From Alphaproteobacteria bacterium (GTDB lineage Bacteria > Pseudomonadota > Alphaproteobacteria > Bin95): a stretch of 64,000 nt of DNA. Below, one piece after another: positions 18,533 through 33,681 of the stretch; within the stretch, counting starts at the first letter, position 1; each line of letters starts with the position of its first letter. Where the stretch lies: assembly GCA_963665325.3 (NCBI GenBank), contig CAXXWS020000002.1, positions 497,644-561,643 of the forward strand, in the 5' to 3' direction. Position numbers and translations under genes: made by a program. The notes under the pieces are model-generated. The model had not been told where the DNA came from, ran no database searches, and saw only the letters and a list, made by a program, of their open reading frames with translations.

Positions 18533-19030
18533 TCACGCCGTCCGCCGGGCCGAGCCGCCGGGTCCGGTATCGGCCGGTGCCTCCGGCGTTTCGGGCGCGC
18601 CGTCGGCTTCCGGCATGAACGCTTCGGCGACGACCGCCGCCCGTTCCTCGCCCAGCACCTCGCGCAGCAGCTCCATCGCCCGCTCGCGCCGGCCCTCGCG
18701 CGCCATCTTGCGCAGCGGCTCCTCCAGCAGGGCGCGGATGTCGTCCTGCACCTGCCGGGCCGCCTCGCCGTCTGCATCCAGACCCCGCGCCAGTTCCGTC
18801 ACCCCGTCCAGAAAGGCGCGCTGCCGCCCCTCGTCCAGAACCAGCGGCTGCGCCTTCTTCCCCTTCGGCGAAGGGTCCACGGTCAGCGCGCAATGCACCC
18901 ACCAGGCCGACACCGACATGCCGGCCCGCCTCGCGCCCTCCCGGACCGCTTCCCATTCCTCGTCGGTAGCGCAGACCGTGTGCGTCATGCCCTTCGCGCC
19001 GCGCCCGCCCGGCTTGCTCCGCTTCCTCAT
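18533..19030 (-). CDS. ribbon-helix-helix (MobC/NikA/CopG-like) DNA-binding protein
   Basis: Trimmed from track ORF 18533..19729 to the ATG at 19030 (ATGA overlap with the dotB stop). RHH core THTVCATDEEWEAVREGARRAGMSVSAWWVHCAL. Confidence 0.6.
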   Translation of the reverse strand: MRKRSKPGGRGAKGMTHTVCATDEEWEAVREGARRAGMSVSAWWVHCALTVDPSPKGKKAQPLVLDEGRQRAFLDGVTELARGLDADGEAARQVQDDIRALLEEPLRKMAREGRRERAMELLREVLGEERAAVVAEAFMPEADGAPETPEAPADTGPGGSARRTA

Positions 19031-20181
19031 CTTCGCTTCTTCCTGTCGCGCGGTCCGTCGCCAAGGTCGCCCGAGGCGGCGAGCGCGCGGGCCAGGTCGG
19101 CGCTGCCGATCCGCCCCTCGCCATGCGCGCGGGCCGCCGCAGCGCCGAGGCCGCCGCAGCGCGCCTTCACCTCCTCGCCGATCTCCCGGGGCCAGCGTTC
19201 CCGCGGCGTGGCGAACAGCCGGCGCTTCAGGTCCCCGTCGAACACGAGCCACTCCCGGAGCGCCGTCCGGCCGCCCTCGGGGTTCGGGACCAGCATCTGC
19301 GTCACCACCAGCGTCAGGCCGTCCAGCAGCGCTACCGCCCGCTCCGCCCGCTCGTCCGGAGGAAACGCCGTCAGCAGGCGCCGGATCGCGGCCGAGACCC
19401 CCACCACATGCGCCGTCGAATAGACCGCAATCCCGAAATCCGCCGCATTGACCACGGCCTCGATCGTCTCGAGATCGCGCGCCTCGCCCACCATTACCGC
19501 CGCCGGACGACGGCGGAGCGCCGCGCGCAGGCCGTCGGCAAAGCTCCCCACATGCGTCGGGACCTCGGTCTGCTCGATGAACGCCCGGCCCGCCCTCACG
19601 CCGTCGAGCTGGAACTCGATCGGGCTCTCGAAGGTCTGCACCTTGCCGAGGCCCCGCTCCAGCAGACGGCGCATCGCGGCCGCCAGAATGGTGGACTTGC
19701 CCGAGCCCGGCACGCCGGTGACCAGGCATATCCCCTCGCCCAGCTGGAGCGCATCCACGATCTGGGCCTCCACGCCGAGCGCGCCCAGCTCCGGAATGTC
19801 CTCCGGCAGAACCCGGAGCGCGACGCCCATGCCCCAGCGCCCGCGCGTCTGGAGCGGCAGCATGTTCACCCGGAACCGCCGGCGCTCCCGCCCCGGACCC
19901 CGGGCGGTGTGGCTGCAGTCGATCGCGCCGCCGCCGCGAAGCTCGGTCTCCGCCCGCTCGCGGCTCACATGCAAGGCGCCCGCAACCCGCGCCATGGCCG
20001 GGCCGTCGAGAGCCCCGCCGGTCGCATGCCTGAGGCGCCCGTCCACCTCCATGAACGCCGGCAGGCCCGTAGAGAACGCGATATCGGTCGCACCCTCGTC
20101 CGCCGCCCAGAGCAGGAACTCGTCGAGCCGCTCGGTCGGGAACGCATGCGCCGCCGGCTCCCAGAGCGCGGCGTCGGTCAC
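19027..20181 (-). CDS. dotB: DotB (TraJ-like) PilT/VirB11-class hexameric ATPase
   Basis: Trimmed to the GTG at 20179-20181 (GTGA overlap with the ssb-like stop). Walker A GVPGSGKST, Asp box VMVGEARD, His box YSTAHV. Confidence 0.85.
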   Translation of the reverse strand: MTDAALWEPAAHAFPTERLDEFLLWAADEGATDIAFSTGLPAFMEVDGRLRHATGGALDGPAMARVAGALHVSRERAETELRGGGAIDCSHTARGPGRERRRFRVNMLPLQTRGRWGMGVALRVLPEDIPELGALGVEAQIVDALQLGEGICLVTGVPGSGKSTILAAAMRRLLERGLGKVQTFESPIEFQLDGVRAGRAFIEQTEVPTHVGSFADGLRAALRRRPAAVMVGEARDLETIEAVVNAADFGIAVYSTAHVVGVSAAIRRLLTAFPPDERAERAVALLDGLTLVVTQMLVPNPEGGRTALREWLVFDGDLKRRLFATPRERWPREIGEEVKARCGGLGAAAARAHGEGRIGSADLARALAASGDLGDGPRDRKKRR

Positions 20182-20621
20182 GAGCCCTCTCCCTTCGCCG
20201 GAACCCGCCGCCAATGGGCGCGCACCAGCACCCGGCGCTCGGCGCCCATCCACTCGGGCTCGGCCTCGGCGCCGGCCTCGCGCGGGGGCCCGTCCAGCCG
20301 GTTCAGCCAGCCGCGCGCGCCCGCCAGCACCACCAGCGCAACCCGCCCGGACCGCTCCTCGCCGCTCAGCTCCCGGTATTCGAGGCGGCCCATCACCTGC
20401 AGCGCAGCACCCTTGACCACCAGCCGCCGCGCCACGTCCGCCAGCGCGCCCACCGCGCGCACATGATGCCACTCGACGCTCTCCTCATACTCGCCGCCGC
20501 GCCGGTAGCGCCGGAGGTTCGTCGCCAGCGAGAAATCCGCGATCTCGGTCTCGCCAGCCTTGCGTATCTCGGCATCCTTGCCGGCATGCCCAACCAGGTG
20601 GACGTCCGAAAGGTTCAGCAT
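20178..20621 (-). CDS. ssb: single-stranded-DNA-binding (OB-fold) protein lacking the usual acidic C-terminal tip
   Basis: MLNLSDVHLVGHAGKDAEIRKAGETEIADFSLATN...WHHVRAVGALADVARRLVVKGAALQVMGRLEYRE is SSB-like. GGAGG SD upstream. The C-terminus reads ..WRRVPAKGEGS. Confidence 0.75.
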   Translation of the reverse strand: MLNLSDVHLVGHAGKDAEIRKAGETEIADFSLATNLRRYRRGGEYEESVEWHHVRAVGALADVARRLVVKGAALQVMGRLEYRELSGEERSGRVALVVLAGARGWLNRLDGPPREAGAEAEPEWMGAERRVLVRAHWRRVPAKGEGS

Positions 20622-20643
20622 GGCAACCGCCTCCTTCCGCTCC

Positions 20644-20772
20644 GCGGAAAATCAAAACCTAAAGTTTCGGACTTGATATTTCCTTGTTGTTTCATTGGCT
20701 TGCCGGCCTCCCTCCACACCGCGAGCGCCGGCGGAAAATCAAAAGTCCGATTTTCGGACAGTTGATATTTCG
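20644..20772. promoter_or_regulatory. two ~40-bp AT-rich direct repeats, each an imperfect palindrome; candidate operator/promoter upstream of ssb-dotB
   Basis: 20644-20683 GCGGAAAATCAAAACCTAAAGTTTCGGACTTGATATTTCC and 20731-20772 GCGGAAAATCAAAAGTCCGATTTTCGGACAGTTGATATTTCG. Each has arms GAAAATCAA / TTGATATTTC. They lie in the only sizeable intergenic gap (160 bp) of the tra operon. Confidence 0.5.
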
Positions 20773-20781
20773 CCCTGCCTC

Positions 20782-21636
20782 TCATGGCCTTGCCCGCCCG
20801 CTGCCCTCGTCCACCGTCGGCAGCGGCTTCCACTCGCGCGGCAGGAGGTTGAAGGCGGACCGCGCGCCGAGGCGCACCACCGTCTCCGATATGCGCAGCA
20901 GCCGCTCATGGCCCGACACGGCCGTCACCTCGGTCTCTGTCCCGGGCGCGCTCACCATCGCCGCCCGGCGAAGCCGGTGCCAGCGCACCACGCCCTCGAA
21001 TGCCGCAACCAGCCGCTCCAGGTCCGAGGCATGGATATCGTCGGCCAGCCGGACCCCGTGCTTCCAGCCTTCCTCCAGCCAGCCGTTCCAGCGCCGGCGT
21101 TCCTCCGCGTTGCGCGGGAACAGCACCGACGCCGGAGGCCGGGCCGCCTCCCACCCCCGCTCCAGCCAGTCGCGCCAGACCGGCGGCGCGCCCACGATCC
21201 GCTCCCCGGCCGCGATGCGGAGCACGCGTCTCGCGCTCGCCGCCCTGCCGGGCTCGATCCGGATCGCGTCCCGCGTCTCCGCCAGAACGGGCGGCATCAC
21301 CTGGAACCCGCCCCGGTCCAGCAGCAGCGCCCGGAAGTCGAATACCTGAGAGAGCGCCTTCGACCGCTTCTCCAGCAGCCGCGCAATCTCCCGGCCGCGA
21401 TGCGCCAGGCCCGCCTGCGAGGCCCATGACAAGGCCGCCAGACGCTGCGCCTCGCCCCGGCGCTTCGCCGCCCGCTCCTTCTCGCCGCCGTCGCTTTCGG
21501 GCGCCTCCATCTCCTTCAACGCCTGCAGGCTGGTTACAGGGCTGTTACCTGCCACCACATCCGGCGCTGCCCGGACCGGCATGACACCCGCCAGCAGCAG
21601 CGCGGCCGCGAACAAGACCGGCACCACCCGCTTCAT
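20782..21636 (-). CDS. dotC: DotC (TraI-like) T4BSS outer-membrane-complex protein
   Basis: Trimmed from track ORF 20782..21969 to the ATG at 21636 (ATGA overlap). Signal peptide MKRVVPVLFAAALLLAGVMPVRA. Position next to dotD and upstream of dotB as in IncI traH-traI-traJ. Confidence 0.65.
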   Translation of the reverse strand: MKRVVPVLFAAALLLAGVMPVRAAPDVVAGNSPVTSLQALKEMEAPESDGGEKERAAKRRGEAQRLAALSWASQAGLAHRGREIARLLEKRSKALSQVFDFRALLLDRGGFQVMPPVLAETRDAIRIEPGRAASARRVLRIAAGERIVGAPPVWRDWLERGWEAARPPASVLFPRNAEERRRWNGWLEEGWKHGVRLADDIHASDLERLVAAFEGVVRWHRLRRAAMVSAPGTETEVTAVSGHERLLRISETVVRLGARSAFNLLPREWKPLPTVDEGSGRARP

Positions 21637-22262
21637 CCGGACGTTCCTCCGGCCTCGTTCGCCGCCGGCGCTGCCTGCCTTCTGCGCAAGACGCCCACCG
21701 CCACGCCGTCCGCATATCCCGCGCCCGCTATCGCCACGGACAGGATGTCCGGCGCAATGGCCAGCAGCGCCGGCGAGCCGAACAACACCGCCGCGAAGCC
21801 GATGGTGGCGATCGCCACGCGGCTCTCCCTGAAGGCTGTCCGGGCCAGCAACCCGTTCTCGACGCCCCAACGCCGTGCCGCCCAGAACGAAAACCCGAAC
21901 AGCGCGCACCAGCAACCGCCGGCAACTGCGATATGCTTCCAGCCTGCCGTTTGCGGTCCCAATGCACACACCGTCAGCGACCAGGCGAGAGCCAGCGTCA
22001 ATATGAGAGAGATCCCCGCATCATGGAAAGAATCGCCGACCTCCTCTGGAGCCTTACATGCTTCGCCGGATACTTCTTTTCCGTTCTCTTCGTGGTCCTC
22101 CTGACTTACCGCCTCCGCGCCATCCTGTGGGGGCAACACACTTCCCGATCGTCCTGGATCACCTTTCTGTTCTTCGCGATTCTGGCCGGCGCGCTGGTCC
22201 TGCCCTGCTACGTCGATCTCAGCTTTCGACCCTCGCCCGCTCGCTGGTGAACGCCTCCTCAT
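21633..22262 (-). CDS. membrane protein, function unknown; true start probably internal (TTG 22001 or GTG 21971)
   Basis: The 3' two-thirds has high GC3 and about 3 TM helices (..CWCALFGFSFWAARRW.., ..IATIGFAAVLFGSPALLAI..). In the 5' ~240 nt, minus-frame GC3 is only ~55%, although an ATGA overlap exists at 22259-22262. Confidence 0.55.
   Translation of the reverse strand: MRRRSPASGRGSKAEIDVAGQDQRAGQNREEQKGDPGRSGSVLPPQDGAEAVSQEDHEENGKEVSGEACKAPEEVGDSFHDAGISLILTLALAWSLTVCALGPQTAGWKHIAVAGGCWCALFGFSFWAARRWGVENGLLARTAFRESRVAIATIGFAAVLFGSPALLAIAPDILSVAIAGAGYADGVAVGVLRRRQAAPAANEAGGTSG
22023..22250 (+). CDS. candidate opposite-strand small (75 aa) two-TM protein nested in the operon
   Basis: MERIADLLWSLTCFAGYFFSVLFVVLLTYRLRAILWGQHTSRSSWITFLFFAILAGALVLPCYVDL... 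Hand-counted codon-position GC in this frame is GC1 55 / GC2 48 / GC3 77%, which is coding-like. The overlapping minus frame gives 77/48/55. Confidence 0.35.
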   Translation: MERIADLLWSLTCFAGYFFSVLFVVLLTYRLRAILWGQHTSRSSWITFLFFAILAGALVLPCYVDLSFRPSPARW

Positions 22263-22885
22263 CGCCCACTCCCTTCCGCGTTACCGCGGTGCGTCACCGA
22301 GAGCGTCCTGCCGCCGGGCGCGATCGCGGCCTCCGGCGCGCGGTCCAGCCCGGATAGGGAATCCGCGAGCGCGCCGACGGCCTCCGCGAACGTCCCCCGG
22401 AAGCGGCGCGTCTCGTGAACCCGGTATGTCCGGTCCGTCAGCCAGACGAGCTCGACACCCACCATGGCGCTCCAGCGCGCCAGCGCCTCCTGCAGCGTCT
22501 CACCCTGCGCGACGCTCCAGTCGGCGACGCCCCGGCCCACCGTCGCGAGCTCGACCTCGCCGGGGGGCAGGCCCGCGGGGCGCACATGCACCTCGTCATC
22601 GTGGCGCTGCCAGGCGAGGCCGAAATCGAAGAGCAGCATCTTCCAGTCCGCATGGACCGCCCGCGCCCGCCGGCTCGTGTCCACACGCCGGTCCCAGCGC
22701 AGCGTCATCCCCTTCGGGGCGAGCCTGGCCGCGACCTCCGCGATCCCGAGCCGGTCCGCCGGCCCGTGGATGAACAGCGACCGGTCCGACTGCACGGGCG
22801 CATAGGCGAACCCCGCATCCGCCGGCAGAGGCATGGCCGCCGGGAGCGCCGCCAGCACCGCAAGCACTGCCGGGACCGCTTTCAC
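22259..22885 (-). CDS. secreted protein with a TcpQ/PilL-like C-terminal domain
   Basis: Signal peptide MKAVPAVLAVLAALPAAMPLPADA. The C-terminal block VADWSVAQGETLQEALARWSAMVGVELVWLTDRTYRV..FRGTFAEAVGAL resembles the TcpQ/PilL module. GTGA overlap with the dotD stop. Confidence 0.55.
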   Translation of the reverse strand: MKAVPAVLAVLAALPAAMPLPADAGFAYAPVQSDRSLFIHGPADRLGIAEVAARLAPKGMTLRWDRRVDTSRRARAVHADWKMLLFDFGLAWQRHDDEVHVRPAGLPPGEVELATVGRGVADWSVAQGETLQEALARWSAMVGVELVWLTDRTYRVHETRRFRGTFAEAVGALADSLSGLDRAPEAAIAPGGRTLSVTHRGNAEGSGR

Positions 22886-23421
22886 GAACCGTCCTCCGCC
22901 GGAGGTGCGGCGCTCTCCGCCTTCGGTCCGATCCAGTCGAGCCGCACCTGCATCCGCCCGGCATCGACGGTCAGCACCGCCTGCTCCCTCGCCTGCAGGC
23001 CCACGTCGCGCAGCACGAAGATCGCGGGCTCGTCCTTTACCTCGATCTCCACCATCACCGGCGCCGGCGGCCGCGTGCCCGCGACCACGAAATCGTAGCC
23101 GATCTCGTCGGCCAGGCGCTCCGCCAGCCGCTCCAGCGGACCCAGCCAGTCGAGCGTCACCCGCGTCTGCAGCTCCGGCGTCACCAGGCGCGGCATATCC
23201 ACGGCGGGCGCCGCGCCGGCCGCGCGGTCCTCCGCGAGCCGCGTCAGCGCCTCCTGCGCGAGGATCATGGCCTCGGCCATGCGAACCTCCGCCGGGTCGC
23301 TCACCGCTGCCGCCTCATCCTTGCCGGGGCGATCCTTGGTCCAGTCCAGGTCGAGCGACTGGCAGCCCGCAAGCGCGAGCGCGCCGAGCGCCATGCCGCC
23401 GAGCGCGGCTGCCGCGCTCAT
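22882..23421 (-). CDS. dotD: DotD (TraH-like) lipoprotein
   Basis: Lipobox LALAGC. DotD-like block VTLDWLGPLERLAERLADEIGYDFVVAGTRPPAPVMVEIEVKDEPAIFVLRDVGLQA. Confidence 0.75.
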   Translation of the reverse strand: MSAAAALGGMALGALALAGCQSLDLDWTKDRPGKDEAAAVSDPAEVRMAEAMILAQEALTRLAEDRAAGAAPAVDMPRLVTPELQTRVTLDWLGPLERLAERLADEIGYDFVVAGTRPPAPVMVEIEVKDEPAIFVLRDVGLQAREQAVLTVDAGRMQVRLDWIGPKAESAAPPAEDGS

Positions 23422-24491
23422 TGCGCTGCACTCCCGATATCGCGCACCACCAGCCAGCGGTTCGGATAGGCGGTCACGCTCAGCAGCCGGCGCATCGGCG
23501 CGATCGCCAGCAGCGCATCGGCCGCCTTCAGGAACCCCTCTTCCTCCGTCTCGCCCGCAGGGAACGCCGCCGCCGCTCCGACCTCGAACTTCCGCTTCGT
23601 CTCCCAGGCCAGGCTCCAGCCGGCGCGCTCCGCCCAGGCGCGCAGCACACCCTCCACGGTCCCGTGCCGCGCCGGGTCTACGCCCCAGCCGGCCGGTTCT
23701 GCCGGCGCCGCGGCCGCTGGCGACGCCTCGCCCTGTCCTTCCAGCGCCGCGCGAGCTTCACCGTCCACAGGCGCTGCGGGTCCTGCTTCCACTCCCCCCG
23801 GAACGCCAGACGCCAGACGCCCCGCCGGATCCATTTCCGCACGGGCCCGTTCCTCCCCGTCTTCCAGTTCACCCGCCCCGTCGACCCGGGCCGCGTCCGC
23901 CTCGGTCTCGGCAAGCGCGGCGAGCAGATCGACCGCGACGCCGGACGGGAGCCTCAGCGCCTCGCGCTGCTCGCTGTCGGCATGGCGGAAGAACACCAGC
24001 CGCCCGTCCGACCAGGTCCAGTCATAGCCCGACAGACGCGCCAGCTCGTCCAGCACCGCCGGCACGGTCCCGGTCATGACCAGGCCGAACGGCACCGGCG
24101 CACCGTGGATGACCTGCTCGCCGGCGACGCGGCCCGGCCGCTCCTCGAGCGCCGCCTCGACGCTCATCAGTTCGGCAATCCGTCCGACCAGCTCCCGGAA
24201 CGCCAGCGGCTCCAGCTGCCTGACCGCGATCTCCCTGGCCGCAAGCTCTGGAGGCAGGGCGCGCGACGGCGCATCCACGCTCACCGTCGCCGGCAGGGGA
24301 CGTGCAGCCCGAGCCGGGCCCGCTGCCCGCTCGTCCGCCGCATCCGCTGACGCGAGCGCCAGGACTGCGGCGGCCAGGACGAACGCCATGAGCAGCAGAA
24401 GCTCCGCACCCGTGCGGTCCGCCCGCCGCCGGCGCGCGTGGCGGCCTCCCGAAGGCATCCAGGCCCGCATGTCCGCCACACGCCGCGTCAT
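23418..24491 (-). CDS. membrane-anchored protein with two TcpQ/PilL-like modules
   Basis: Trimmed from track ORF 23418..24809 to the ATG at 24491 (ATGA overlap). One TM helix. Modules are GTVPAVLDELARLSGYDWTWSDGRLVFF and GTVEGVLRAWAERAGWSLAWETKRKFEV. Confidence 0.55.
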   Translation of the reverse strand: MTRRVADMRAWMPSGGRHARRRRADRTGAELLLLMAFVLAAAVLALASADAADERAAGPARAARPLPATVSVDAPSRALPPELAAREIAVRQLEPLAFRELVGRIAELMSVEAALEERPGRVAGEQVIHGAPVPFGLVMTGTVPAVLDELARLSGYDWTWSDGRLVFFRHADSEQREALRLPSGVAVDLLAALAETEADAARVDGAGELEDGEERARAEMDPAGRLASGVPGGVEAGPAAPVDGEARAALEGQGEASPAAAAPAEPAGWGVDPARHGTVEGVLRAWAERAGWSLAWETKRKFEVGAAAAFPAGETEEEGFLKAADALLAIAPMRRLLSVTAYPNRWLVVRDIGSAAQ

Positions 24492-25066
24492 CGGCCCGCT
24501 CCCGCGCAGCGCCGCAGGGCCGTCCGCGCCTCGCGGTTCTCGCCCTCGCCGATCCGGTTCCAGACCGAGTTGTGGCCGTTCGAGACCAGCGCGCCCGTCA
24601 CCACCGCCGCATCGACGAAGCGCAGCACATCCGCCTTGTCGGCGATGACCGGGCTGTGAAAGCCCGCCGCCGGACCGCCGCCGCGCACGACCGGACCGAA
24701 CCGCTCCACCGGCCCGTCCGGATGGCCCGCGGCCGCCTGCACCGGCTTGCCGGCAGGAACCGTCCCGAAGGACAGATAGGCCTCCGCCTGCCCCGACGCC
24801 CGCTCGCACTGCACCGCGAAGCCGATACGCGGCCCGTTGTCGTCCCCGGTGAGCGGCTCCGCCACGGCGATCGTCAGGTAATCCCCGTCATCGACCCGGA
24901 TCGCGAACGACCGCGCCTCGGGCGTCTCGACACGCTGCGCATGCGCGGCCGCGGGCAACCCGCATGACAACGCCAGAAACAGCGCGACCGGTGCCGCAAC
25001 AGGCGGGCCACTTCTATTCTCTCGTCGCACCGAAAGCCCCCACGATCCCGTTTCGCTGGAAAACAC
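24488..25066 (-). CDS. putative lipoprotein, function unknown
   Basis: Lipobox FLALSCG. 2 further Cys. The start is uncertain: the GTG at 25066 overlaps the upstream gene by 53 nt. Confidence 0.55.
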   Translation of the reverse strand: MFSSETGSWGLSVRRENRSGPPVAAPVALFLALSCGLPAAAHAQRVETPEARSFAIRVDDGDYLTIAVAEPLTGDDNGPRIGFAVQCERASGQAEAYLSFGTVPAGKPVQAAAGHPDGPVERFGPVVRGGGPAAGFHSPVIADKADVLRFVDAAVVTGALVSNGHNSVWNRIGEGENREARTALRRCAGAGR

Positions 25067-26939
25067 CGCCTGCCTCGTTATGGCCGGCGCCGTAGAACCG
25101 GCCCTCGATCGAGCCGTTCATATCGCTCGCCTCGAACGCGCCCTGCGCGACAGAAATGCCTTCCCATCGCATGTCCGAAACCACACCGCCTCCGGTGTCC
25201 GTCATTCCCGTGAGTGCGACGTCCACGTCCGGTGCCGCCAGATCGTCGATGGCGAGCTCGGCATCGCCCCCGATGCGCAGGCCGCTTGTCCCGTCGAGGC
25301 CCACCACCGATCCCTGCCATACCGCCCTGCCGATCCCTGCCGGGTTCGTCTCCGGCCAGGCCCCGAACGAAACCGCGGTCGTCCCGTCCACCAGGCCGAA
25401 TACGCTGTCCTCGAACAAGGAGCCCCGGAAGCCGGACCCGTCGCCCCGCGCCAGCCGCTCCGCCAGCGCGTCCACGTCCAGGGCCCCCGACGCGCTCGAG
25501 GCGAAGCTGTCCGAACCCGCAAGCCGCTCGCCGCGCCGCCAGTCCGACGGCTCCACATGGTCGCCCCGATGCATCCCGCGACCGGCCGTCCGCGCCTCGT
25601 CTTCCTCATCGACATAGTCGTCGGCATATTGCCGGTAGGCGAGCGCCCAGCCGTTCGCGACCAGCCACGCATTCACGTCGATCCCGCCCGAGGAGCACTG
25701 GCCGATCGTGCGCCCGAAGCCGTCCGTCCCGCTGCCCGTGCAGCTCAACCCCGCAGCATGAGACCGCAGCGCCTCCGTCGCCGCCGCGCCGCAACCCCAT
25801 GACCGGCCCCAGGCCCGGCAGGTCTGCCGGCTCTCAGGCGCATCGATGCCGAACAGCCGGTAGCGCACGCCGTCGATATCGACCGTGTCGCCGTCTATCA
25901 CCCGGACCTCCCTGGCCGGCGCTACCGTCCCCGACCCGGGCGGGTTCGACCCGGAACCGGATACGGCGCCGAAGGCCCCCAGGATCCCGTTCTGCTCGAA
26001 GACGCCGGCGACTTCGTCCCTGTCGGGTCCGAAGAAGCCGCCCCTTATCCGGTTGCCGGCAACGCCCGCGTCGAAGGCCATTCTCGCCGTCACGTCGACC
26101 TCGGGCTCCTCGCCGGGCTCCAGCTCGCCCTCCTCCTCGACCGTCGTCTCCGTCACGTCGTGCAGGCTGACCGGCACATCCACGAAGCTCGCATCGGCAA
26201 ACGACGCGCCGGTCGACACGCTCACAATGTCGGTGAAGGCCGCATCGATCCGACCGACGACATCGCCGTCTTCGGCATCGTCGCCGAGCGCCTCGACCGA
26301 CCGGTAGGTGAGCGCCGCATCGCCATGCAGACGCCCTTCCGAAAACCCGCCGGTATCCGTCACCCCGACCATCCGGCCCCGCCAGACCGCGTTCACGTCC
26401 CGGCCCTCGGCGACCTCCGTCAGCCCCCCGAGCGCCAGCCCGTAGCGAAACTCGCGAAGCTCCGCATCCATGCCCGCGCGCTCCAGCAATACGCCGAAGC
26501 CGGCATGGCGCATCCAGCCGCCCCAGCTCTGCGCATCGAGGTCCGGCGCCCAAACCACGTCGATACCGCCAATCCGCTCGACAACGCCGGCGCTGGCGAG
26601 CGGTCCGGCATTGCCGATGCCGATCCCGCCGCCGCCCGACCCCGAGCAGCTCAGCCCCGAACATGCGGTGTCATGGACCGCGCTCTCGCCGTACCCGCGT
26701 TCCTCATGCACGCTCGTTGCGAACAGCGCATCCGCGCCTCCCAGAACCGAAGCCGCCCGCACCGAAGCGGCCCTTTCCCCATCCTCCGGCAAAGGCGTCG
26801 GTCTCTCTCCCGGCTCCGGACCCGCCGGCGCGATCCGGGCCGCTGGCCGCGACGGTCCCCCGTCGCCGCCGCAGGCCGACAGAACCGCGCCGCATGCCAG
26901 CAAGGCCGCGGCCAGACGCCCGTATCCCGATCCGCGCAT
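25014..26939 (-). CDS. lipoprotein: TbpB-like beta-barrel module, then a staphylococcal-nuclease (SNase) domain, then a second TbpB-like beta-barrel module
   Basis: Lipobox VLSACGG. Each barrel ends with the TbpB-type signature (..NRIRGGFFGPDRDEVAGVFEQNGILGAFGAV and ..IEGRFYGAGHNEAGGVFQRNGIVGAFGATRE). The SNase core is VRVIDGDTVDIDGVRYRLFGIDAPES..GRTIGQC..VNAWLVANGWALAYRQY, with the Ca-binding and catalytic D/D/E/R positions present (about nt 25530-25913). Confidence 0.8.
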   Translation of the reverse strand: MRGSGYGRLAAALLACGAVLSACGGDGGPSRPAARIAPAGPEPGERPTPLPEDGERAASVRAASVLGGADALFATSVHEERGYGESAVHDTACSGLSCSGSGGGGIGIGNAGPLASAGVVERIGGIDVVWAPDLDAQSWGGWMRHAGFGVLLERAGMDAELREFRYGLALGGLTEVAEGRDVNAVWRGRMVGVTDTGGFSEGRLHGDAALTYRSVEALGDDAEDGDVVGRIDAAFTDIVSVSTGASFADASFVDVPVSLHDVTETTVEEEGELEPGEEPEVDVTARMAFDAGVAGNRIRGGFFGPDRDEVAGVFEQNGILGAFGAVSGSGSNPPGSGTVAPAREVRVIDGDTVDIDGVRYRLFGIDAPESRQTCRAWGRSWGCGAAATEALRSHAAGLSCTGSGTDGFGRTIGQCSSGGIDVNAWLVANGWALAYRQYADDYVDEEDEARTAGRGMHRGDHVEPSDWRRGERLAGSDSFASSASGALDVDALAERLARGDGSGFRGSLFEDSVFGLVDGTTAVSFGAWPETNPAGIGRAVWQGSVVGLDGTSGLRIGGDAELAIDDLAAPDVDVALTGMTDTGGGVVSDMRWEGISVAQGAFEASDMNGSIEGRFYGAGHNEAGGVFQRNGIVGAFGATRE

Positions 26940-26942
26940 CGC

Positions 26943-27977
26943 CTACTCCGCCTCCTGCCGTCGCGCGCCGAAGGACCCGACAATGCCGAGCTGCTCCATC
27001 ACCCCCACGCTCTCCGGATGACCCGGCCCGTAGAAGCCGCCGGCGATACGGTTCCCGCGGACGCCCGCGTCGAACGTCCCGTCCAGACGAACCGGCACAT
27101 TGTCGAACCTGACCCGGGGCACGCTGTGCGGGCGCCGGTTTGCCAGGTCGTAAATGCCGGAGAACACCGCATCCAGCGAAGCGTCGCCGGCGTCATATGT
27201 GAGCACCGCGTCGCCCTGCAGCGGCAGGTAGCCGTTGGCCGAACTGCCACTCAGCACGCCCCGCCAGACCAGATCGAAATCGCGGACCGGAACCGGGCGT
27301 GTCCCGGCGAGATCGCCGCCCGCCAGCCCGTAGCGCCACTGCGTCTCCCAGCCGTCATCGACCGTCAGCGCATGGCTGAATACGAACCCGCTATGGTCCA
27401 TCCAGGCGCCGAGGCTTCGCATGTCGGGCGTGTCCGGCGCCGCCTTGCGCACGTCCGCCTGCGCTTCCAGGAGCGTGATCCCGTGCCGGCGCCCCCAGGC
27501 GCTGGAAGCCCGCGTCACCCAGTCCAGGTCCCGCAGCGCGAACCCGTCCGGCACGCCGCCAGCCGACGCCCCGCCCGCATCGCCTGCTGCCGCCAGCCTG
27601 CAGGATGCGCCCTCGCACTCGGCGTCGAACAGGAAGTCCTGCCGTTCGAGCTCCGGTTCCGGGTCGAACCCGCCCCGGTCGGGCAGCACCGCCACCTCCG
27701 GCGGCAGCTCGCGGCGCTGTCCGTGGACGCGCGTCGCCAGCAGAGAGTCGGTCCGGAACAGGATTTCGGCCATCCGCGCCGCCACCTCGCCGCCTGTCTC
27801 CGAAGGCGCGCCGGTATTGGGCGCCGGGCCGGGAGGAGAAGGAAGACGGGGCTCGTCGCCGGCGCCGCATGCCGACAAGGCGAGTATGGGTGCGGCCGCC
27901 ATGACGAATGCCTTCGCCAGCATCCGCCGGCGAGAGACTCGCTTCGTTGTCCTGCGTCGAATGCCTTGGGCCCTCAT
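26943..27977 (-). CDS. lipoprotein with a single TbpB-like beta-barrel module (paralogous to the modules in 25014..26939)
   Basis: Lipobox LALSACG. C-terminal NRIAGGFYGPGHPESVGVMEQLGIVGSFGARRQ. The ATG at 27977 gives an ATGA overlap; the track start at 27983 is TTG. Confidence 0.7.
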   Translation of the reverse strand: MRAQGIRRRTTKRVSRRRMLAKAFVMAAAPILALSACGAGDEPRLPSPPGPAPNTGAPSETGGEVAARMAEILFRTDSLLATRVHGQRRELPPEVAVLPDRGGFDPEPELERQDFLFDAECEGASCRLAAAGDAGGASAGGVPDGFALRDLDWVTRASSAWGRRHGITLLEAQADVRKAAPDTPDMRSLGAWMDHSGFVFSHALTVDDGWETQWRYGLAGGDLAGTRPVPVRDFDLVWRGVLSGSSANGYLPLQGDAVLTYDAGDASLDAVFSGIYDLANRRPHSVPRVRFDNVPVRLDGTFDAGVRGNRIAGGFYGPGHPESVGVMEQLGIVGSFGARRQEAE

Positions 27978-28612
27978 TCGCAAGCCTCCCCACCGAGAAG
28001 CCGCCGCCAGCGCGTCCGCTCCCGCCTGCTCGCCTCACGCCAGTGCCTCCGGCTCCACCCGATCGACAGCACCCGCCACGGGCTCACCCCATGCCTGGCG
28101 CCCAAAGCACCCAGCCACAGCCAGTCCGTCAGACCCGACAGCAGCCCTGCCGCAATGCCGCAGCCTCCCAGCACCGCGATCCACAACTCCGCATTCGCCC
28201 TGGCCTGCTTGCAGGCCTCCGCGAACGCCTCGATCACCTGCGCCTTGTCCATTTCCGGATCCGCCAGGCCTTCGATGAGGACGTCCGTCATCGCGAGCTT
28301 CAGCCCCGCAAGGATCAGACAACCCACAAACAACGTTGCGCAGACCGCTGCGAACCTGATCTCCCACGCCGCGACCCAACCCAGGGCCCGGCGCAAACGG
28401 CTGCCCGGCCCGCCCCGGTTTCGGCCCGTCCCGTCGGCCCTGAGCGCCGCCCAGGCGAGAGCCCCGCCGGCGCCCCAGGCCAGCAGCAGCCAATGCGGCC
28501 CGACGGCCAGCCACGCAACGACCGACACCATCGCCATCGACATCACGCCCAGCGCGGAGGCTCGCAACACCGCGCGCCTTTCCCAGGGTTTGAAGCCGAT
28601 CCGCCCGCTCAT
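27974..28612 (-). CDS. polytopic membrane protein, paralog of 29812..30432
   Basis: Trimmed to the ATG at 28612 (ATGA overlap). The C-terminal ..GIAAGLLSGLTDWLWLGALGARHGVSPWRVLSIGWSRRHWREASRRERTRWRRLL aligns with ..VGTAALSGLIDGVWVGRVSAGTGKRPWQVLPGGRAWSGWRRKERERCRRWL. Confidence 0.6.
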   Translation of the reverse strand: MSGRIGFKPWERRAVLRASALGVMSMAMVSVVAWLAVGPHWLLLAWGAGGALAWAALRADGTGRNRGGPGSRLRRALGWVAAWEIRFAAVCATLFVGCLILAGLKLAMTDVLIEGLADPEMDKAQVIEAFAEACKQARANAELWIAVLGGCGIAAGLLSGLTDWLWLGALGARHGVSPWRVLSIGWSRRHWREASRRERTRWRRLLGGEACE

Positions 28613-29202
28613 CGCCCCGGCTCCCGGAGCTGCCGCGCCGTCTCCACGGCCATGAAGCCCGACAGGAGGCAAATCAGGGCGGCCGTCGCGAGGAAAGCCA
28701 GCACCGTGACTCCGTATTCCAGTACGGGCCCCGCTCTACCGAACCGGACCAACGTGCCCATCGCGACCGACAGCGAGGCCAACATCATGCCGTTGCTGCA
28801 GGCGCCCCCGGCCATGGCCCCGCCGGCGAGCGCCAGAATGCATCGGCGCCAAAGGCGCAACCGGCCGCCCGCCTCCCTCAATCTCCAGACCGTAACCCCG
28901 CCGCCCGTGCAGAAGCAGCCCAGCGGGCCGGCGATCACAAAGGCCTTCACGACGATGAGGCCTTCCAGCGACACCGGCTGGCTCCATAGCGGCAGAACCC
29001 ACAGGAGAAGCCCCAGACAGAACCCTACCCCCACCGCCGCCAGGCCATAGCCGGTCCCGAACCACCACAGGCGCCGCGCCGGCCCTGGAGGCGGCCCGCA
29101 AAGCATCTGCTTCGCGCGGTCCCGCATGCCGGCAGGCCCGCAGTCCGACGCACCGGCGCCTTCATGCTTCATCGCTTCTGTCGAGCCGGTCATCGCCTTC
29201 AC
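28609..29202 (-). CDS. membrane protein, function unknown
   Basis: 4-5 hydrophobic helices. GTG start at 29202, 4 nt after the peptidase stop. An internal ATG start (MRDRAKQ..) is also possible. Confidence 0.5.
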   Translation of the reverse strand: MKAMTGSTEAMKHEGAGASDCGPAGMRDRAKQMLCGPPPGPARRLWWFGTGYGLAAVGVGFCLGLLLWVLPLWSQPVSLEGLIVVKAFVIAGPLGCFCTGGGVTVWRLREAGGRLRLWRRCILALAGGAMAGGACSNGMMLASLSVAMGTLVRFGRAGPVLEYGVTVLAFLATAALICLLSGFMAVETARQLREPGR

Positions 29203-30432: not shown

Positions 30433-30827
30433 GACCCGTCCTCCCACACGCCGAACGTCGCCGGCAGGAGGCGGCACCAGCGCTCCAGCTCCTCTTCGCC
30501 GCAGATCTCCGGGCGCAGCGTCCTGACGGCCGAGCCGACCTCCGCCCGCTCCCGGTTCCACGCCCCGAGCTCCTTCTGCACCGCCAGAAGCCGGCGCATC
30601 CCGGCAACCTCGCGCGCCAGCGCCTCGCGGACCTTCAGGCCCTCGAGGCGCGTCGCCGCCCAGCCGTCCGGAGCCGCCGGCGTGTCCTGCTTCGGGGCGC
30701 TGTTCTGCGCGGGAGCCGTGTTCTCTGCCGGGACCGCGTCCTGCGCCGGGGCCGCAGACGGCAACGCCATCGCGCCCGCCAGCGACAGCAGCGTTGCCAG
30801 ACCCGAAATGCGCGCCGCCCTCAGCAT
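30429..30827 (-). CDS. small secreted protein, function unknown
   Basis: Trimmed from track ORF 30429..32006 to the ATG at 30827. Signal peptide MLRAARISGLATLLSLAGAMALPSAAPA. Pro/Ala-rich linker, helical C-terminus with 2 Cys. Confidence 0.55.
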   Translation of the reverse strand: MLRAARISGLATLLSLAGAMALPSAAPAQDAVPAENTAPAQNSAPKQDTPAAPDGWAATRLEGLKVREALAREVAGMRRLLAVQKELGAWNRERAEVGSAVRTLRPEICGEEELERWCRLLPATFGVWEDGS

Positions 30828-31897
30828 CCCTGGCAGCTCCCGACCGAGAGGGTCCCGAACGAGCCCGTGCCGGTCACCGATACAGACCCGGTGACGTCGG
30901 CGCCCGAGGCCGTGAGGTTGGCCTCGGCCTCGATATTCTCGGCCTCCACGTCGCCGGCGATATCGGCGCTCGCCGCCTCCAGCGCGCCCCTCGCCTCCAC
31001 CTCGTCGGCATTGACCACGCCCGTGAACGCCGCATCGCCCCGGAACACCAGCCCGTCCGGCACCGTGAAACTCCCCATGACCTCGACCGATCCCGCCGTC
31101 GTCGCCGTGCCCACCGTCAGCGCCCGGTCGATCCGGAACTCGCCCGCCCGCATGACGCGGTCCACCTGCAGCTCCTCGGCCGTCAGCACCCGCACGCCCA
31201 CCAGGTCGTTGTTGTTCATGTCGAGATCGGTCTCCATGCGCGCGGAGTCCGGACAGCCGGCGCGTACCCGCCGGAACACCGCGTCCCCGCACACGCTCTC
31301 CCGGTCGAGCTGCCGGTAGACGGCAAGCGCGCGGGCGCGCGGATGGCCGCCGGCCGCCGCCCGGAACGCGCCCAGGTCCTCCTGCACGGTCGGCCCGAGC
31401 AGCCGGCCCGCCGCGTCCACCACGCCGAGCGCCTGTGCGCCGCGCGCCTCGAAGACCGCATTCGCCGGAAAGCGCGTGTCGTTCGCATCCGCCAGCTGCA
31501 TCGACAAGAGCCGGACATTGCCCCCGCCGAGCGAGACCGCCCAGGCCTGGAGCGGGCGCTTCATCGCGTCGCCCGCCTCGTCGAAGCCCTGCGGCAGCAG
31601 CCTGTCGGTCCTCAGCGCGCCGATATCGATCCGCCGCGCCGTCCCGGCCGCGAGCGCGGCATAGGTCCCGTATTCCGAGCGCACATGGCTCTCGACCGCC
31701 TGCGCCAGCACCACCAGCTTCCGCGCCGAGCCGACCGCGTTCGAGGCCGCGATGCGGCCCTGCAGCCAGATCGCGAAACCGAGCGCGATCACCACCAGCA
31801 CGATCACCGCCACCAGCGCGCCCACAGGCGTCATGCCCCGCCAGCGCCCGATCCTGAGGCGCCGCGCGAACCCTGGTCTGCGCATGGGACCCCTCAT
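30821..31897 (-). CDS. pilV: PilV-like minor pilin / tip adhesin (shufflon-N-like constant region, fixed C-terminus)
   Basis: Basic leader plus hydrophobic helix (..RWRGMTPVGALVAVIVLVVIALGF..). Conserved ..METDLDMNNNDLVGV.. block as in R64 PilV. Ends ..LSVGSCQGC. Confidence 0.65.
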   Translation of the reverse strand: MRGPMRRPGFARRLRIGRWRGMTPVGALVAVIVLVVIALGFAIWLQGRIAASNAVGSARKLVVLAQAVESHVRSEYGTYAALAAGTARRIDIGALRTDRLLPQGFDEAGDAMKRPLQAWAVSLGGGNVRLLSMQLADANDTRFPANAVFEARGAQALGVVDAAGRLLGPTVQEDLGAFRAAAGGHPRARALAVYRQLDRESVCGDAVFRRVRAGCPDSARMETDLDMNNNDLVGVRVLTAEELQVDRVMRAGEFRIDRALTVGTATTAGSVEVMGSFTVPDGLVFRGDAAFTGVVNADEVEARGALEAASADIAGDVEAENIEAEANLTASGADVTGSVSVTGTGSFGTLSVGSCQGC

Positions 31898-33138: not shown

Positions 33139-33141
33139 CGG

Positions 33142-33681
33142 TCACCCGAACACGAAGGTCAGGGCGTTGGACGCCGTGCCGTTGTCGCACTGGTTGTTGA
33201 GCCAGGTGACCGTGCGCGTCACCGGCGCGCCGGCATGCACCGCCGCCGGGGCGCTGCCGGCCACCTGCATCCGCACGATCCCCGAGCCCGCCCGCGTCCG
33301 GCCCACATAGGCCTGGCCCAGGTCCTTGCAGGTCTCGTCGTCCAGATCCGCGAACGTGATCGCGAACCGCCCGCCATTGCCCAGGATCGTCACCGCGCCG
33401 CCGAACGGATGACGGATCGTCGCCGACCCGCCCGTGCCCACCCGCGAGCCGTCCGGGATCTTCCCGAACCCGGCCAGGATCGGCACAAGGTCGTCATTCG
33501 CGCTGTCGCCGTAGCTGGCCTGGCCCGAATAGATCCTCTCGACATTGGCGCGCAGCTGGTTCAGCAGCTCGACCGACTCGCCCTCGCTCAGCCGCGCCGT
33601 GATCCCGTTGTAGATCCCCACAACCGCGACGATCGCGAAGAGGCCCGCTACCACCGACAGCAAGACTCCGATAGGGTTCAT
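33142..33681 (-). CDS. pilS: type IVb major pilin candidate (PilS-like) with an unusually short leader
   Basis: GAGGAGGGG SD. MNPIGVLLSVVAGLFAIVAVVGIYNGI hydrophobic N-terminus, followed by a globular domain with a C-terminal Cys pair (..ETCKDL.. and ..NNQCDNG..). Confidence 0.65.
   Translation of the reverse strand: MNPIGVLLSVVAGLFAIVAVVGIYNGITARLSEGESVELLNQLRANVERIYSGQASYGDSANDDLVPILAGFGKIPDGSRVGTGGSATIRHPFGGAVTILGNGGRFAITFADLDDETCKDLGQAYVGRTRAGSGIVRMQVAGSAPAAVHAGAPVTRTVTWLNNQCDNGTASNALTFVFG

What the first reader, a model, noticed from the sequence alone, without database searches (positions are those of the whole stretch)
25014..26939. Lipoprotein with a catalytically intact staphylococcal-nuclease domain inserted between two TbpB-like beta-barrel modules
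Seen: lipobox VLSACGG. Residues ~60-326 and ~480-641 each end with the motif G(F/R)F(F/Y)G(P/A)..(D/N)E(V/A)(A/G)GVF(E/Q).NGI(L/V)GAFGA. Between them (about nt 25530-25913) lies VRVIDGDTVDIDGVRYRLFGIDAPES..GRTIGQC..VNAWLVANGWALAYRQY..PSDWRR. Known: the FYGP..E.GG.F...(V/A)FGA(K/R) ending is the hallmark of the beta-barrel of TbpB/LbpB-type surface lipoproteins. The central block aligns with the SNase Ca-binding and catalytic residues (D21/D40/T41/E43, R35, R87 equivalents appear present). Inference: this would be a nuclease displayed on, or tethered to, the outer membrane by surface-lipoprotein barrels, encoded between the pilus and T4BSS genes. Possible roles are entry exclusion by degrading incoming DNA, processing of extracellular DNA in mating aggregates, or anti-competitor/biofilm activity. 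I am not aware of this domain combination being characterised.
Basis: partly seen in the sequence, partly recalled or inferred. Interest (0 to 1): 0.8.

Follow-up and report, generated by a model that had tools for sequence, protein, structure and literature searches.

The report
ICE-borne lipoprotein nuclease with TbpB-like barrels
A mobile element in a marine alphaproteobacterium encodes a lipid-anchored, apparently active DNA-cutting enzyme built like the surface lipoproteins of Neisseria; this rare, uncharacterised combination arose by fusing two neighbouring genes.

Summary
ORF 25014-26939 (-) encodes a 641-aa lipoprotein. Pfam finds TbpB_B_D (33.2 bits, cut-off 26) and SNase (31.3 bits, cut-off 21). 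AlphaFold and Foldseek show an SNase fold flanked by two TbpB-lobe-like modules. All five catalytic SNase residues and four cysteines are invariant in 41/41 homologs.

The interpretation needs three refinements.
1. It is a gene fusion, not an insertion. The N-module normally exists as a stand-alone ~328-aa lipoprotein "B". The commoner form of the nuclease is a ~360-aa lipoprotein made of lipobox, SNase and one barrel.
2. The nuclease gene is a recurrent but dispensable accessory of mobile elements. Seven of 11 loci place it in the same slot of an IncI-like (MPF_I, Dot/Icm-type) integrative conjugative element (ICE), between the thin-pilus genes and TcpQ/DotD/TraI. Four loci lie in another mobile-element type. 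One related ICE lacks it.
3. No Slam/DUF560 translocator is present in the window or in the ±10 kb flanks of the 11 related loci, so surface exposure is inferred only from the cargo-like architecture.

IncI1 plasmids carry a non-homologous (PLD-family) nuc gene in their transfer region, which is a functional parallel. Only about 6-8 clusters among 1.84 billion representatives share the SNase+barrel architecture, and all are unnamed. Verdict: a real, uncharacterised new variant of known kinds, of moderate interest.

The parts
25014..26939 (-). Whole gene: 641-aa lipoprotein with the order B-lobe, SNase, C-module (stop codon at 25014-25016)
   Evidence: ORF and GC3; Pfam TbpB_B_D and SNase above gathering cut-offs; 8 full-length homologs at 65-92% identity
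26871..26939 (-). Signal peptide and lipobox (residues 1-23, LSA|C23, followed by GGDGG; no Asp at +2)
   Evidence: Read from the translation. A lipobox followed by a Gly run was found in 37 of the 40 database homologs scanned; the 3 without one begin without a recognisable signal peptide. The N-terminus is the same as in stand-alone B proteins
26790..26870 (-). Pro-rich, low-confidence tether after the lipid anchor (residues 24-50)
   Evidence: pLDDT below 50 in both models
25962..26789 (-). N-module 'B lobe' (residues 51-326): handle plus 8-stranded TbpB-type barrel ending GGFFGP...GAFGA
   Evidence: AF2 model with pLDDT 81 and pTM 0.78. Foldseek top hits are the TbpB C-lobe, hemophilin, PmSLP, LbpB, fHbp and NHBA. 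It is 65-87% identical to stand-alone ~328-aa lipoproteins P0050-P0066
25914..25961 (-). Fusion junction and linker (residues 327-342, VSGSGSNPPGSGTVAP). Stand-alone B proteins stop 2-5 residues after GAFGA here, and the short nuclease's own signal peptide is missing
   Evidence: Alignment A3; L001 ORFs; short-form sequences
25530..25913 (-). SNase (staphylococcal nuclease-like) domain, residues 343-470
   Evidence: Pfam PF00565 over residues 360-456; phmmer hits to S. aureus nuclease in PDB; Foldseek TM about 0.72 and rmsd about 3 A to SNase structures, with pLDDT above 90
25710..25889 (-). Span holding the catalytic and Ca2+ residues D351 (25887-25889), R361 (25857-25859), D366 (25842-25844), E369 (25833-25835) and R410 (25710-25712), plus four invariant cysteines C374, C383, C400 and C415
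   Evidence: All are 41/41 invariant in alignment A1; correspondence to SNase D21/R35/D40/E43/R87 comes from the HMMER alignment
25017..25511 (-). C-module (residues 477-641): small beta 'pedestal' plus 8-stranded TbpB/NHBA-type barrel ending GRFYGA...GAFGATRE
   Evidence: pLDDT above 90; Foldseek match to the NHBA C-terminal domain 6cuj (TM 0.60-0.63) and to TbpB; second TbpB_B_D stretch; weak NCBIfam slam_lipo match at residues 600-640
26943..27983 (-). Upstream paralog 'A': 346-aa lipoprotein (LSAC) with one TbpB-lobe-like module and no nuclease; its stop lies 3 nt before the fusion gene's ATG
   Evidence: BLASTP E 8e-21 to the N-module and 9e-12 to the C-module; conserved in L017 and L001; junction sequence
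24488..25066 (-). Downstream overlapping ORF 'Cpart': a small secreted protein (a more likely start is the GTG at 25030). It is an ICE component, not a nuclease-specific partner
   Evidence: 90% conserved in L017 and joined to Npart in L022; absent next to short forms outside the T4BSS; sequence
27974..28672 (-). 'Npart' membrane protein upstream of A; in L022 it is contiguous with Cpart
19027..24809 (-). Downstream T4BSS outer-membrane and ATPase genes: TcpQ-like, DotD/TraH, TcpQ-like, TraI/DotC-type lipoprotein, TraJ/DotB ATPase
   Evidence: Pfam
30821..33681 (-). Upstream type IVb thin-pilus genes (PilS pilin and two PilV/shufflon-N-like proteins)
   Evidence: Pfam

Best explanation
This is an accessory gene of an IncI-like (MPF_I, Dot/Icm-type) integrative conjugative element. 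It encodes an outer-membrane lipoprotein nuclease. SHOWN from sequence and models: a Sec/lipoprotein signal with Cys23 and no inner-membrane retention residue; a complete SNase catalytic and Ca2+ site; four invariant cysteines; and two handle-plus-8-stranded-barrel modules of the TbpB/fHbp/NHBA/hemophilin type. The gene arose by in-frame fusion of a stand-alone TbpB-lobe lipoprotein gene (B) with the adjacent short nuclease gene (lipobox-SNase-pedestal-barrel), which lost its own signal peptide. INFERRED: after lipidation and Lol transport to the outer membrane, the C-terminal barrel works as it does in Slam/T11SS cargo, as an export and anchoring module. That would place the disulfide-stabilised, Ca2+-dependent SNase 'effector' on the cell surface, where it cuts extracellular DNA or RNA close to the cell. 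The extra N-lobe supplies the lipid anchor and probably an unknown ligand-binding surface. MOST SPECULATIVE: by thinning eDNA around the donor, it helps thin-pilus and T4BSS mating, or persistence, in DNA-rich matrices. It is beneficial but not essential for transfer, like the non-homologous PLD-type Nuc of IncI1 and IncN plasmids.
For: Domains: Pfam TbpB_B_D and SNase pass their gathering cut-offs; PDB SNase hits; AF2 residues 341-641 have pLDDT above 90, with Foldseek matches to SNase (TM about 0.72) and the NHBA barrel (TM about 0.6); the N-module model (pLDDT 81) hits only Slam/T11SS-cargo folds with significance. Active site: D351/R361/D366/E369/R410 and four Cys are 41/41 invariant. Lipoprotein: a lipobox plus Gly run is near-universal. 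Fusion: stand-alone B proteins are 65-87% identical and end at the junction; L001 has A plus B and no SNase; L022, L023, L026 and L027 have the short SNase-barrel form in the same slot; the fusion is conserved in 8 homologs down to 65% identity and in syntenic loci L017 and L025. Mobile-element link: 7 of 11 loci occupy the same pilus-to-T4BSS slot and 4 of 11 lie in another relaxase/T4CP element. Cargo model: T11SS cargo are described as N-terminal effector, pedestal and C-terminal 8-stranded barrel (PMC12282271; PMC8406197). Parallel: IncI1 carries a PLD-family nuc between traK and sogL, and it is dispensable (PMC4288162).
Against: No DUF560/Slam (PF04575) gene was found among the window's predicted genes or in the +/-10 kb flanks of the 11 related loci, although known cargo are usually adjacent to their translocator. 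NCBIfam slam_lipo scores only 28 bits against a cut-off of 80. Surface exposure, nuclease activity and Ca2+ dependence are all untested. A sister ICE (L001) lacks the nuclease, so it is not needed for the machinery. Short forms also occur away from T4BSS genes. The periplasmic location reported (from memory) for other plasmid nucleases is an equally simple alternative. The N-module fold matches have modest TM-scores (0.3-0.45).
Confidence: 0.55

Rival explanations
1. A periplasm-facing outer-membrane lipoprotein nuclease. The lipid anchor holds it on the inner leaflet of the outer membrane, the barrels are only structural or ligand-binding, and the SNase degrades DNA that enters the periplasm (transforming DNA, phage DNA, or DNA taken up as a nutrient). 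This would resemble periplasmic plasmid nucleases such as IncN/IncI1 Nuc.
For: No Slam/DUF560 gene in the window or in the flanks of the 11 related loci. IncI1 tra regions carry a nuclease that is dispensable for transfer. The four invariant cysteines fit the periplasm as well as the surface.
Against: Every characterised protein with this barrel fold among the Foldseek hits (TbpB, LbpB, fHbp, NHBA, hemophilin, PmSLP) is surface-exposed or secreted (PMC12282271). fHbp and NHBA can reach the E. coli surface without Slam (PMC5500766). The conserved C-terminal motif is the part that matches TbpB_B_D and slam_lipo.
Confidence: 0.27
2. A released or contact-dependent anti-competitor nuclease. The barrel mediates secretion, as for the soluble T11SS cargo hemophilin, and the SNase attacks the nucleic acids of neighbouring cells or of the host matrix as a weapon or virulence/symbiosis factor, unrelated to conjugation. 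The ICE merely carries it as cargo.
For: Short forms occur in several non-T4BSS mobile-element contexts. The family reaches a Gemmatimonadota and a Gammaproteobacteria MAG, which suggests a niche-adaptive cargo gene. Secreted thermonucleases remodel biofilm eDNA in Neisseria and Staphylococcus (PMC13584700).
Against: The lipobox is near-universal, which argues for a tethered protein rather than a free one. No adjacent immunity or inhibitor gene is conserved across contexts: Cpart is absent next to short forms outside the T4BSS. An extracellular SNase cannot enter target cells by itself. The fixed slot in 7 ICE loci suggests co-expression with the transfer genes.
Confidence: 0.1
3. A catalytically inert DNA-binding adhesin, or an artefactual ORF. 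Either the SNase-like OB fold only binds eDNA, or the 641-aa ORF results from a sequencing frameshift that joined two genes.
For: NHBA, the closest structural match of the C-module, belongs to a DNA-binding surface lipoprotein (PMC13584700). Stand-alone B and short nuclease genes exist side by side in relatives.
Against: All catalytic residues are 41/41 invariant. The fusion recurs in 8 database proteins at 65-92% identity from different assemblies, and at the syntenic loci L017 and L025. The junction lacks the second signal peptide altogether, which a simple frameshift would not remove.
Confidence: 0.04

Closest known systems
Slam/T11SS-dependent surface lipoproteins and cargo (TbpB, LbpB, fHbp, NHBA, hemophilin HphA/Hpl, PmSLP)
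   Same: They share the lipobox followed by a Gly-rich tether, the handle/pedestal plus C-terminal 8-stranded barrel with the ...FYGP..E.GG.F....GAFGA ending, and the bilobed (two handle-barrel pairs) layout seen in TbpB. They also share the 'N-terminal effector, pedestal, C-terminal barrel' logic.
   Different: The effector here is an enzyme, an SNase nuclease, which is not among the roughly ten cargo architectures catalogued in PMC12282271. No DUF560 translocator and no TonB-dependent receptor partner lies nearby. The gene is carried on a conjugative element in Alphaproteobacteria. Sequence identity to the solved proteins is only 9-16% for the TbpB-family matches of the N-module and 21% for the C-module's match to the NHBA barrel.
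Staphylococcal nuclease family (S. aureus Nuc and membrane-anchored Nuc2; N. gonorrhoeae Nuc; Mycoplasma SNase-type lipoprotein nucleases; RK2/RP4 ParB). The last three are cited from my own knowledge; Neisseria Nuc is covered in PMC13584700
   Same: The OB-fold SNase domain has a conserved Ca2+ and catalytic constellation and is exported. A membrane- or lipid-anchored SNase is known in Gram-positives and Mycoplasma. SNase-type 'thermonuclease family' genes are common on plasmids (558 PLSDB records, 419 of them conjugative).
   Different: This domain has four invariant cysteines (a QTCR..G..W.CG motif) and is fused to TbpB-type barrels. It is only about 22% identical to S. aureus nuclease. Activity is untested.
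Nuc of IncI1 (R64, ColIb-P9, pESBL) and IncN (pKM101) plasmids
   Same: It is an exported nuclease gene embedded in an MPF_I-type transfer region near traH/traI/traJ homologs. It is accessory: dispensable for transfer in R64 and pESBL (PMC4288162), just as the gene here is absent from sister ICE L001.
   Different: It is not homologous. IncI1 Nuc is a 183-aa phospholipase-D-family protein annotated as an EDTA-resistant nuclease (PMC4288162), not an SNase. It has no barrel modules and sits in a different slot (between traK and sogL, rather than between the pilus genes and the TcpQ/DotD genes).

Membership tests
SNase / thermonuclease (Pfam PF00565) | Profile match above the curated threshold | tested here: met
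   31.3 bits against a cut-off of 21, residues 360-456 covering profile positions 2-104 of 107
SNase / thermonuclease (Pfam PF00565) | OB-fold SNase tertiary structure | tested here: met
   AF2 pLDDT above 90; Foldseek TM 0.70-0.74 and rmsd about 3 A to many SNase crystal structures
SNase / thermonuclease (Pfam PF00565) | Catalytic and Ca2+ residues (D21, D40, E43, R35, R87; T41 through its backbone) | tested here: met
   D351, D366, E369, R361 and R410 are present and 41/41 invariant; T41 is Ala367, a backbone ligand position
SNase / thermonuclease (Pfam PF00565) | Ca2+-dependent DNase/RNase activity | not testable with these tools
   Needs a biochemical assay
Slam/T11SS-dependent surface lipoprotein (TbpBBD cargo) | Sec/lipoprotein signal peptide with a lipobox cysteine | tested here: met
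   LSA|C23 GGDGG; conserved across the family
Slam/T11SS-dependent surface lipoprotein (TbpBBD cargo) | C-terminal 8-stranded TbpB_B_D-type beta-barrel at the extreme C-terminus | tested here: met
   Pfam TbpB_B_D 33.2 bits against a cut-off of 26; eight strands at residues 539-640 with pLDDT above 90; NHBA and TbpB matches. NCBIfam slam_lipo scores only 28.4 against a cut-off of 80
Slam/T11SS-dependent surface lipoprotein (TbpBBD cargo) | Cognate DUF560 (PF04575) outer-membrane translocator encoded nearby | tested here: not met
   No DUF560 hit among about 40 predicted window proteins, and none listed within +/-10 kb at L017, L018, L020, L022-L028 or the related multi-module locus L021
Slam/T11SS-dependent surface lipoprotein (TbpBBD cargo) | A DUF560 translocator anywhere in the host genome | not testable with these tools
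Slam/T11SS-dependent surface lipoprotein (TbpBBD cargo) | Experimentally shown surface exposure or secretion that depends on the translocator | not testable with these tools
   Needs shaving, flow cytometry or reconstitution assays
TbpB/LbpB bipartite receptor lipoprotein proper | Two handle-barrel lobes | tested here: met
   N-module and C-module, though the C-module has only a small pedestal
TbpB/LbpB bipartite receptor lipoprotein proper | Adjacent TonB-dependent receptor (TbpA/LbpA) and a role in iron acquisition | tested here: not met
   No TonB-dependent receptor among the window genes; the neighbours are pilus and T4BSS genes
IncI1/IncN transfer-region Nuc | Phospholipase-D-family (HKD) nuclease fold | tested here: not met
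   The IncI1 nuc product is annotated as a phospholipase D family protein; the window protein is an SNase
IncI1/IncN transfer-region Nuc | Exported nuclease encoded within an MPF_I transfer region and dispensable for transfer | tested here: inconclusive
   The location within an MPF_I region is met. Dispensability is suggested only by its absence from sister ICE L001

The most novel reading that the evidence does not exclude
This family would be the first enzymatic (nuclease) effector displayed by the TbpB/Slam-T11SS-type surface-lipoprotein scaffold. It would be mobilised by conjugative elements, and it would act at the donor surface to clear or process extracellular DNA so that thin-pilus and T4BSS mating works in DNA-rich matrices such as biofilm or animal-host tissue. 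That would give a testable answer to why unrelated conjugative systems (IncI1/IncN PLD Nuc, plasmid SNases) keep an exported nuclease in or near their transfer genes.
Probability: 0.25. Interest if true: 0.7.

Novelty: new variant of a known kind. Interest (0 to 1): 0.5.

Why it matters
If the protein is active and surface-exposed, it would extend the Slam/T11SS cargo repertoire from binding proteins (iron, haem, complement factors, adhesins) to an enzyme. It would also show that the TbpB-type barrel is a portable display module that mobile elements recombine with effector domains. The window and its relatives capture three states of that process: separate genes, the short nuclease form, and the fused bilobed form.

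It also adds a second, non-homologous case of an exported nuclease kept in MPF_I transfer regions. The purpose of such nucleases is a small but long-standing puzzle in conjugation biology. In practical terms, the short form (about 330 mature residues) is a compact candidate for nuclease assays and surface-display engineering.

Tried and rejected
1. I tested whether the downstream overlapping ORF (Cpart, 24488-25066) is a dedicated nuclease inhibitor or immunity protein. It accompanies the nuclease in the ICE loci tested by tblastn (window, L017, L022, L023), with matching 192-aa and 174-aa gene calls in L025 and L026. But tblastn finds no homolog next to short forms in other contexts (L018, L020, L024), and no matching gene call lies next to L028. 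In L022 it sits upstream, joined to Npart. Rejected.

2. My recollection that IncI1 nuc is an SNase homolog and essential for transfer was wrong on both counts. It is PLD-family and dispensable.

3. The NCBIfam 'EcnA calcium-activated nuclease' lead produced nothing relevant in the literature search.

4. Fetching R64 (AP005147), pESBL (CP003290) and RK2 (BN000925) by accession failed because they are not in the collections. The comparison with RK2 ParB therefore rests on memory only.

5. A combined full-length alignment that added the B homologs (A2) mis-registered the short forms onto the N-module. I abandoned it and modelled the N-module alone (A3).

6. The first full-length AF2 model left the N-module unresolved (pLDDT below 50) because only about 9 sequences covered it.

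7. A Paracoccus plasmid thermonuclease locus (H1/L014) showed no T4BSS context.

8. There are no tRNA genes in the window, so the ICE attachment site was not defined.

9. The frameshift or assembly-artefact explanation for the fusion was rejected; see the rival explanations.
Full report
**1. Observation**

The window is 70-75% GC over most of its length. A GC3-based gene call supports the minus-strand ORF 25014-26939 (641 aa; GC3 0.83, GC2 0.57).
- the lipobox VLSA-C23-GG;
- the SNase-like block VRVIDGDTVDIDGVRYRLFGIDAPES...GRTIGQC...VNAWLVANGWALAYRQY...PSDWRR, where nt 25530-25913 correspond exactly to residues 343-470;
- the two repeated endings, GGFFGPDRDEVAGVFEQNGILGAFGA (residues 300-325) and GRFYGAGHNEAGGVFQRNGIVGAFGA (residues 613-638).

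The only slip is that motif position 2 is G/R, not F/R.

The gene starts 3 nt after the stop of the upstream gene, with a GGAG about 6 nt before the ATG.

**2. Domain assignments**

- **Sequence.** Pfam gives TbpB_B_D at 33.2 bits (gathering cut-off 26, two stretches) and SNase at 31.3 bits (cut-off 21). NCBIfam gives sub-threshold matches to SNase-like PRK06518 models and to 'Slam-dependent surface lipoprotein' at residues 600-640 (28 bits against 80). phmmer against PDB sequences hits S. aureus nuclease directly (E about 2e-3). That alignment equates D351, R361, D366, A367, E369 and R410 with SNase D21, R35, D40, T41, E43 and R87.
- **C-terminal half.** An AlphaFold2 model built on 42 sequences resolves residues 341-641 at pLDDT above 90. 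Foldseek against PDB finds SNase crystal structures (TM 0.70-0.74 normalised to the target, rmsd about 3 A). For the C-terminal module it finds the 8-stranded barrel of the neisserial heparin-binding antigen NHBA (TM 0.60-0.63) and TbpB.
- **N-terminal module.** All significant Foldseek hits are Slam/T11SS-cargo folds: the TbpB C-lobe, A. baumannii hemophilin, the Pasteurella Slam-dependent lipoprotein PmSLP, LbpB, fHbp and NHBA. TM-scores are modest (0.3-0.45), but probabilities are about 1.0 and nothing else scores.
- **Internal similarity.** The two modules are detectably related to each other (E 1e-8). Both are related to the upstream neighbour (E 8e-21 and 9e-12).

**3. Active site and export signals across the family**

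In the 41 homologs of alignment A1, D351, R361, D366, E369 and R410 are invariant, as are four cysteines: C374, C383, C400 and C415. Invariant cysteine pairs in an exported protein suggest two disulfides; that is an inference. A lipobox followed by a Gly run (L-[STA]-[AG]-C-GGG) was found in 37 of the 40 database homologs scanned. The three without one begin without a recognisable signal peptide. There is no Asp at +2, so by the usual Lol rule (established knowledge) the protein should be sorted to the outer membrane.

**4. What the gene really is: a fusion**

- The homolog search found 8 full-length proteins (630-674 aa, 65-92% identity). It also found about 30 proteins of roughly 350-400 aa that cover only the C-terminal half. 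These short forms consist of signal peptide and lipobox, a short linker, the SNase and the C-module.
- The N-module searched alone retrieves about 17 stand-alone lipoproteins of 320-340 aa (P0050-P0066) that are 65-87% identical to it. They have the same signal peptide and terminate 2-5 residues after GAFGA, exactly where the window protein continues into the linker VSGSGSNPPGSGTVAPA and then the SNase.
- The window protein is therefore an in-frame fusion of a 'B' lipoprotein gene with the adjacent short nuclease gene, whose own signal peptide was lost. It is not a sequencing artefact. The fusion recurs in eight database proteins down to 65% identity and at the syntenic loci L017 and L025.

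**5. Context**

The gene lies in a block of about 49 kb with these features:
- a type IV coupling protein;
- a Dot/Icm-type (MPF_I) T4BSS: DotI/IcmL twice, TrbI/DotG-like, TraJ/DotB, TraI/DotC-type lipoprotein, DotD/TraH, and TcpQ-like proteins;
- a type IVb thin-pilus cluster: PilS, PilV/shufflon-N-like proteins, a T2SSE ATPase and a secretin-like protein;
- an IS21 insertion.

Housekeeping genes begin at about 49.6 kb. TraJ finds IncI-type traJ and Legionella dotB in plasmids.

Synteny comparison shows that the slot between the pilus genes and TcpQ/DotD is variable:
- **L001** (an Alphaproteobacteria MAG chromosome): A plus stand-alone B, with no nuclease.
- **L022, L023, L026 and L027:** the short nuclease form.
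- **Window, L017 and L025:** A plus the B::SNase-C fusion.

Counting all loci examined, 7 of 11 nuclease genes sit in this slot. The other 4 lie in a different mobile-element background with a TrwC relaxase or T4CP, HTH_17, H-NS, a type ISP restriction enzyme, or IS elements. The nuclease is thus a recurrent accessory gene of mobile elements, but not a core one.

**6. Slam/T11SS**

The published cargo model is an N-terminal effector, a pedestal and a C-terminal 8-stranded barrel that targets secretion (PMC8406197; PMC12282271). The short form fits it well: SNase as effector, strands at about 504-527 as pedestal, and eight strands at 539-640 as barrel. None of the roughly ten architectures catalogued there is a nuclease, and the words nuclease and DNase do not occur in that paper.

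However, I found no DUF560 protein among about 40 predicted window proteins, and none is listed in the flanks of any related locus. The genome-wide test could not be run. Slam-independence is conceivable, because fHbp and NHBA reach the E. coli surface without Slam in some strains (PMC5500766). Surface exposure therefore remains an inference from fold homology.

**7. Comparison with known transfer-region nucleases**

IncI1 plasmids carry nuc between traK and sogL. It is dispensable for transfer in R64 and pESBL (PMC4288162). Its product is annotated as a phospholipase D family protein, so it is not homologous to the SNase here. SNase-type 'thermonuclease family' genes are nevertheless common on plasmids (558 PLSDB records, 419 of them conjugative). 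The present gene is a convergent case of an exported nuclease kept with MPF_I transfer genes.

**8. Rarity**

An exhaustive phmmer search with residues 336-641 against 1.84 billion 50%-identity representatives gives 13,971 hits at E ≤ 1e-3. Only about 6-8 clusters cover both the SNase and the barrel: P0006, P0082, P0083, P0087, P0088, P0094 and a few fragments. The rest are SNase-only proteins or multi-barrel proteins. Of the family members looked up, only P0040 carries a source name, and that name is 'hypothetical protein'. Hosts named by the records are Alphaproteobacteria MAGs, one Gammaproteobacteria MAG and one Gemmatimonadota MAG. One locus comes from a TARA metagenome.

**9. Mechanism and verdict**

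The best-supported reading is a lipid-anchored outer-membrane SNase nuclease carried by conjugative elements and built on the TbpB-type surface-lipoprotein scaffold.
- Confidence is high (about 0.8) for an exported, catalytically competent lipoprotein nuclease with TbpB-like barrels that arose by gene fusion.
- Confidence is moderate (about 0.55) for surface display.
- Confidence is low (about 0.25-0.3) for a specific role in mating.

The main rival is a periplasm-facing nuclease. This is a new variant of known kinds, not a new category. Interest is moderate, at 0.5.

Noticed in passing
window 26943-27983 (-); L001 9989-11919: The upstream gene 'A' is a paralogous 346-aa lipoprotein with one TbpB-lobe-like module and no Pfam hit. 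Together with stand-alone 'B' proteins and a 1075-aa protein of four tandem modules (P0041, beside ZrgA/ABC-transporter/P-type ATPase genes in L021), it marks an uncharacterised expanded family of TbpB-like lipoproteins in these Alphaproteobacteria.
   Followed up: partly
window 27974-28672 (-) and 24488-25066 (-); L022 8826-10001: In L022 a single 391-aa gene joins homologs of the window's 232-aa membrane protein and its 192-aa secreted ORF. In the window these two parts flank gene A and the fusion gene, so the lipoprotein cassette lies between them. Their function is unknown.
   Followed up: partly
window 42711-44090 (-): A 459-aa ORF that appears to have a signal-peptide-like N-terminus sits in a low-GC patch (0.61 against about 0.72) inside the ICE pilus region. 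It looks like a separately acquired cargo gene and was not scanned against Pfam.
   Followed up: no
window 35495-38463 (-): An IS21-like element (IstA-type rve transposase, IstB-type AAA helper and an HTH ORF) is inserted within the thin-pilus gene cluster.
   Followed up: no
window 49598-50377 (+): An isocitrate/isopropylmalate dehydrogenase ORF covers only profile positions 123-347 of 348, and the upstream frame contains stops. It is a 5'-truncated gene right at the apparent ICE boundary, possibly a remnant of the integration site.
   Followed up: partly
window 563-2116 (-): The ORF at the other end of the element has only an Arm-DNA-binding N-terminal domain, followed by a long acidic low-complexity region and a C-terminal hydrophobic segment. 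It is not a normal tyrosine integrase. There are no tRNA genes in the window.
   Followed up: no
L002 10028-11594 (Gemmatimonadota MAG); P0040 (Gammaproteobacteria MAG): SNase plus C-module proteins at about 40% identity occur in other phyla and classes. L002 has two tandem SNase-like segments before the barrel. This suggests horizontal spread of the architecture.
   Followed up: no
P0081 (4105 aa): A giant protein matches the C-module in 15 separate stretches, so it is an extreme tandem array of these barrel modules.
   Followed up: no
window 14580-14885 (-); L017 and L022: An HU-family DNA-binding protein is encoded inside the T4BSS operon. Relatives also carry SSB and NikA-like genes between traI and traJ or icmT.
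   Followed up: no
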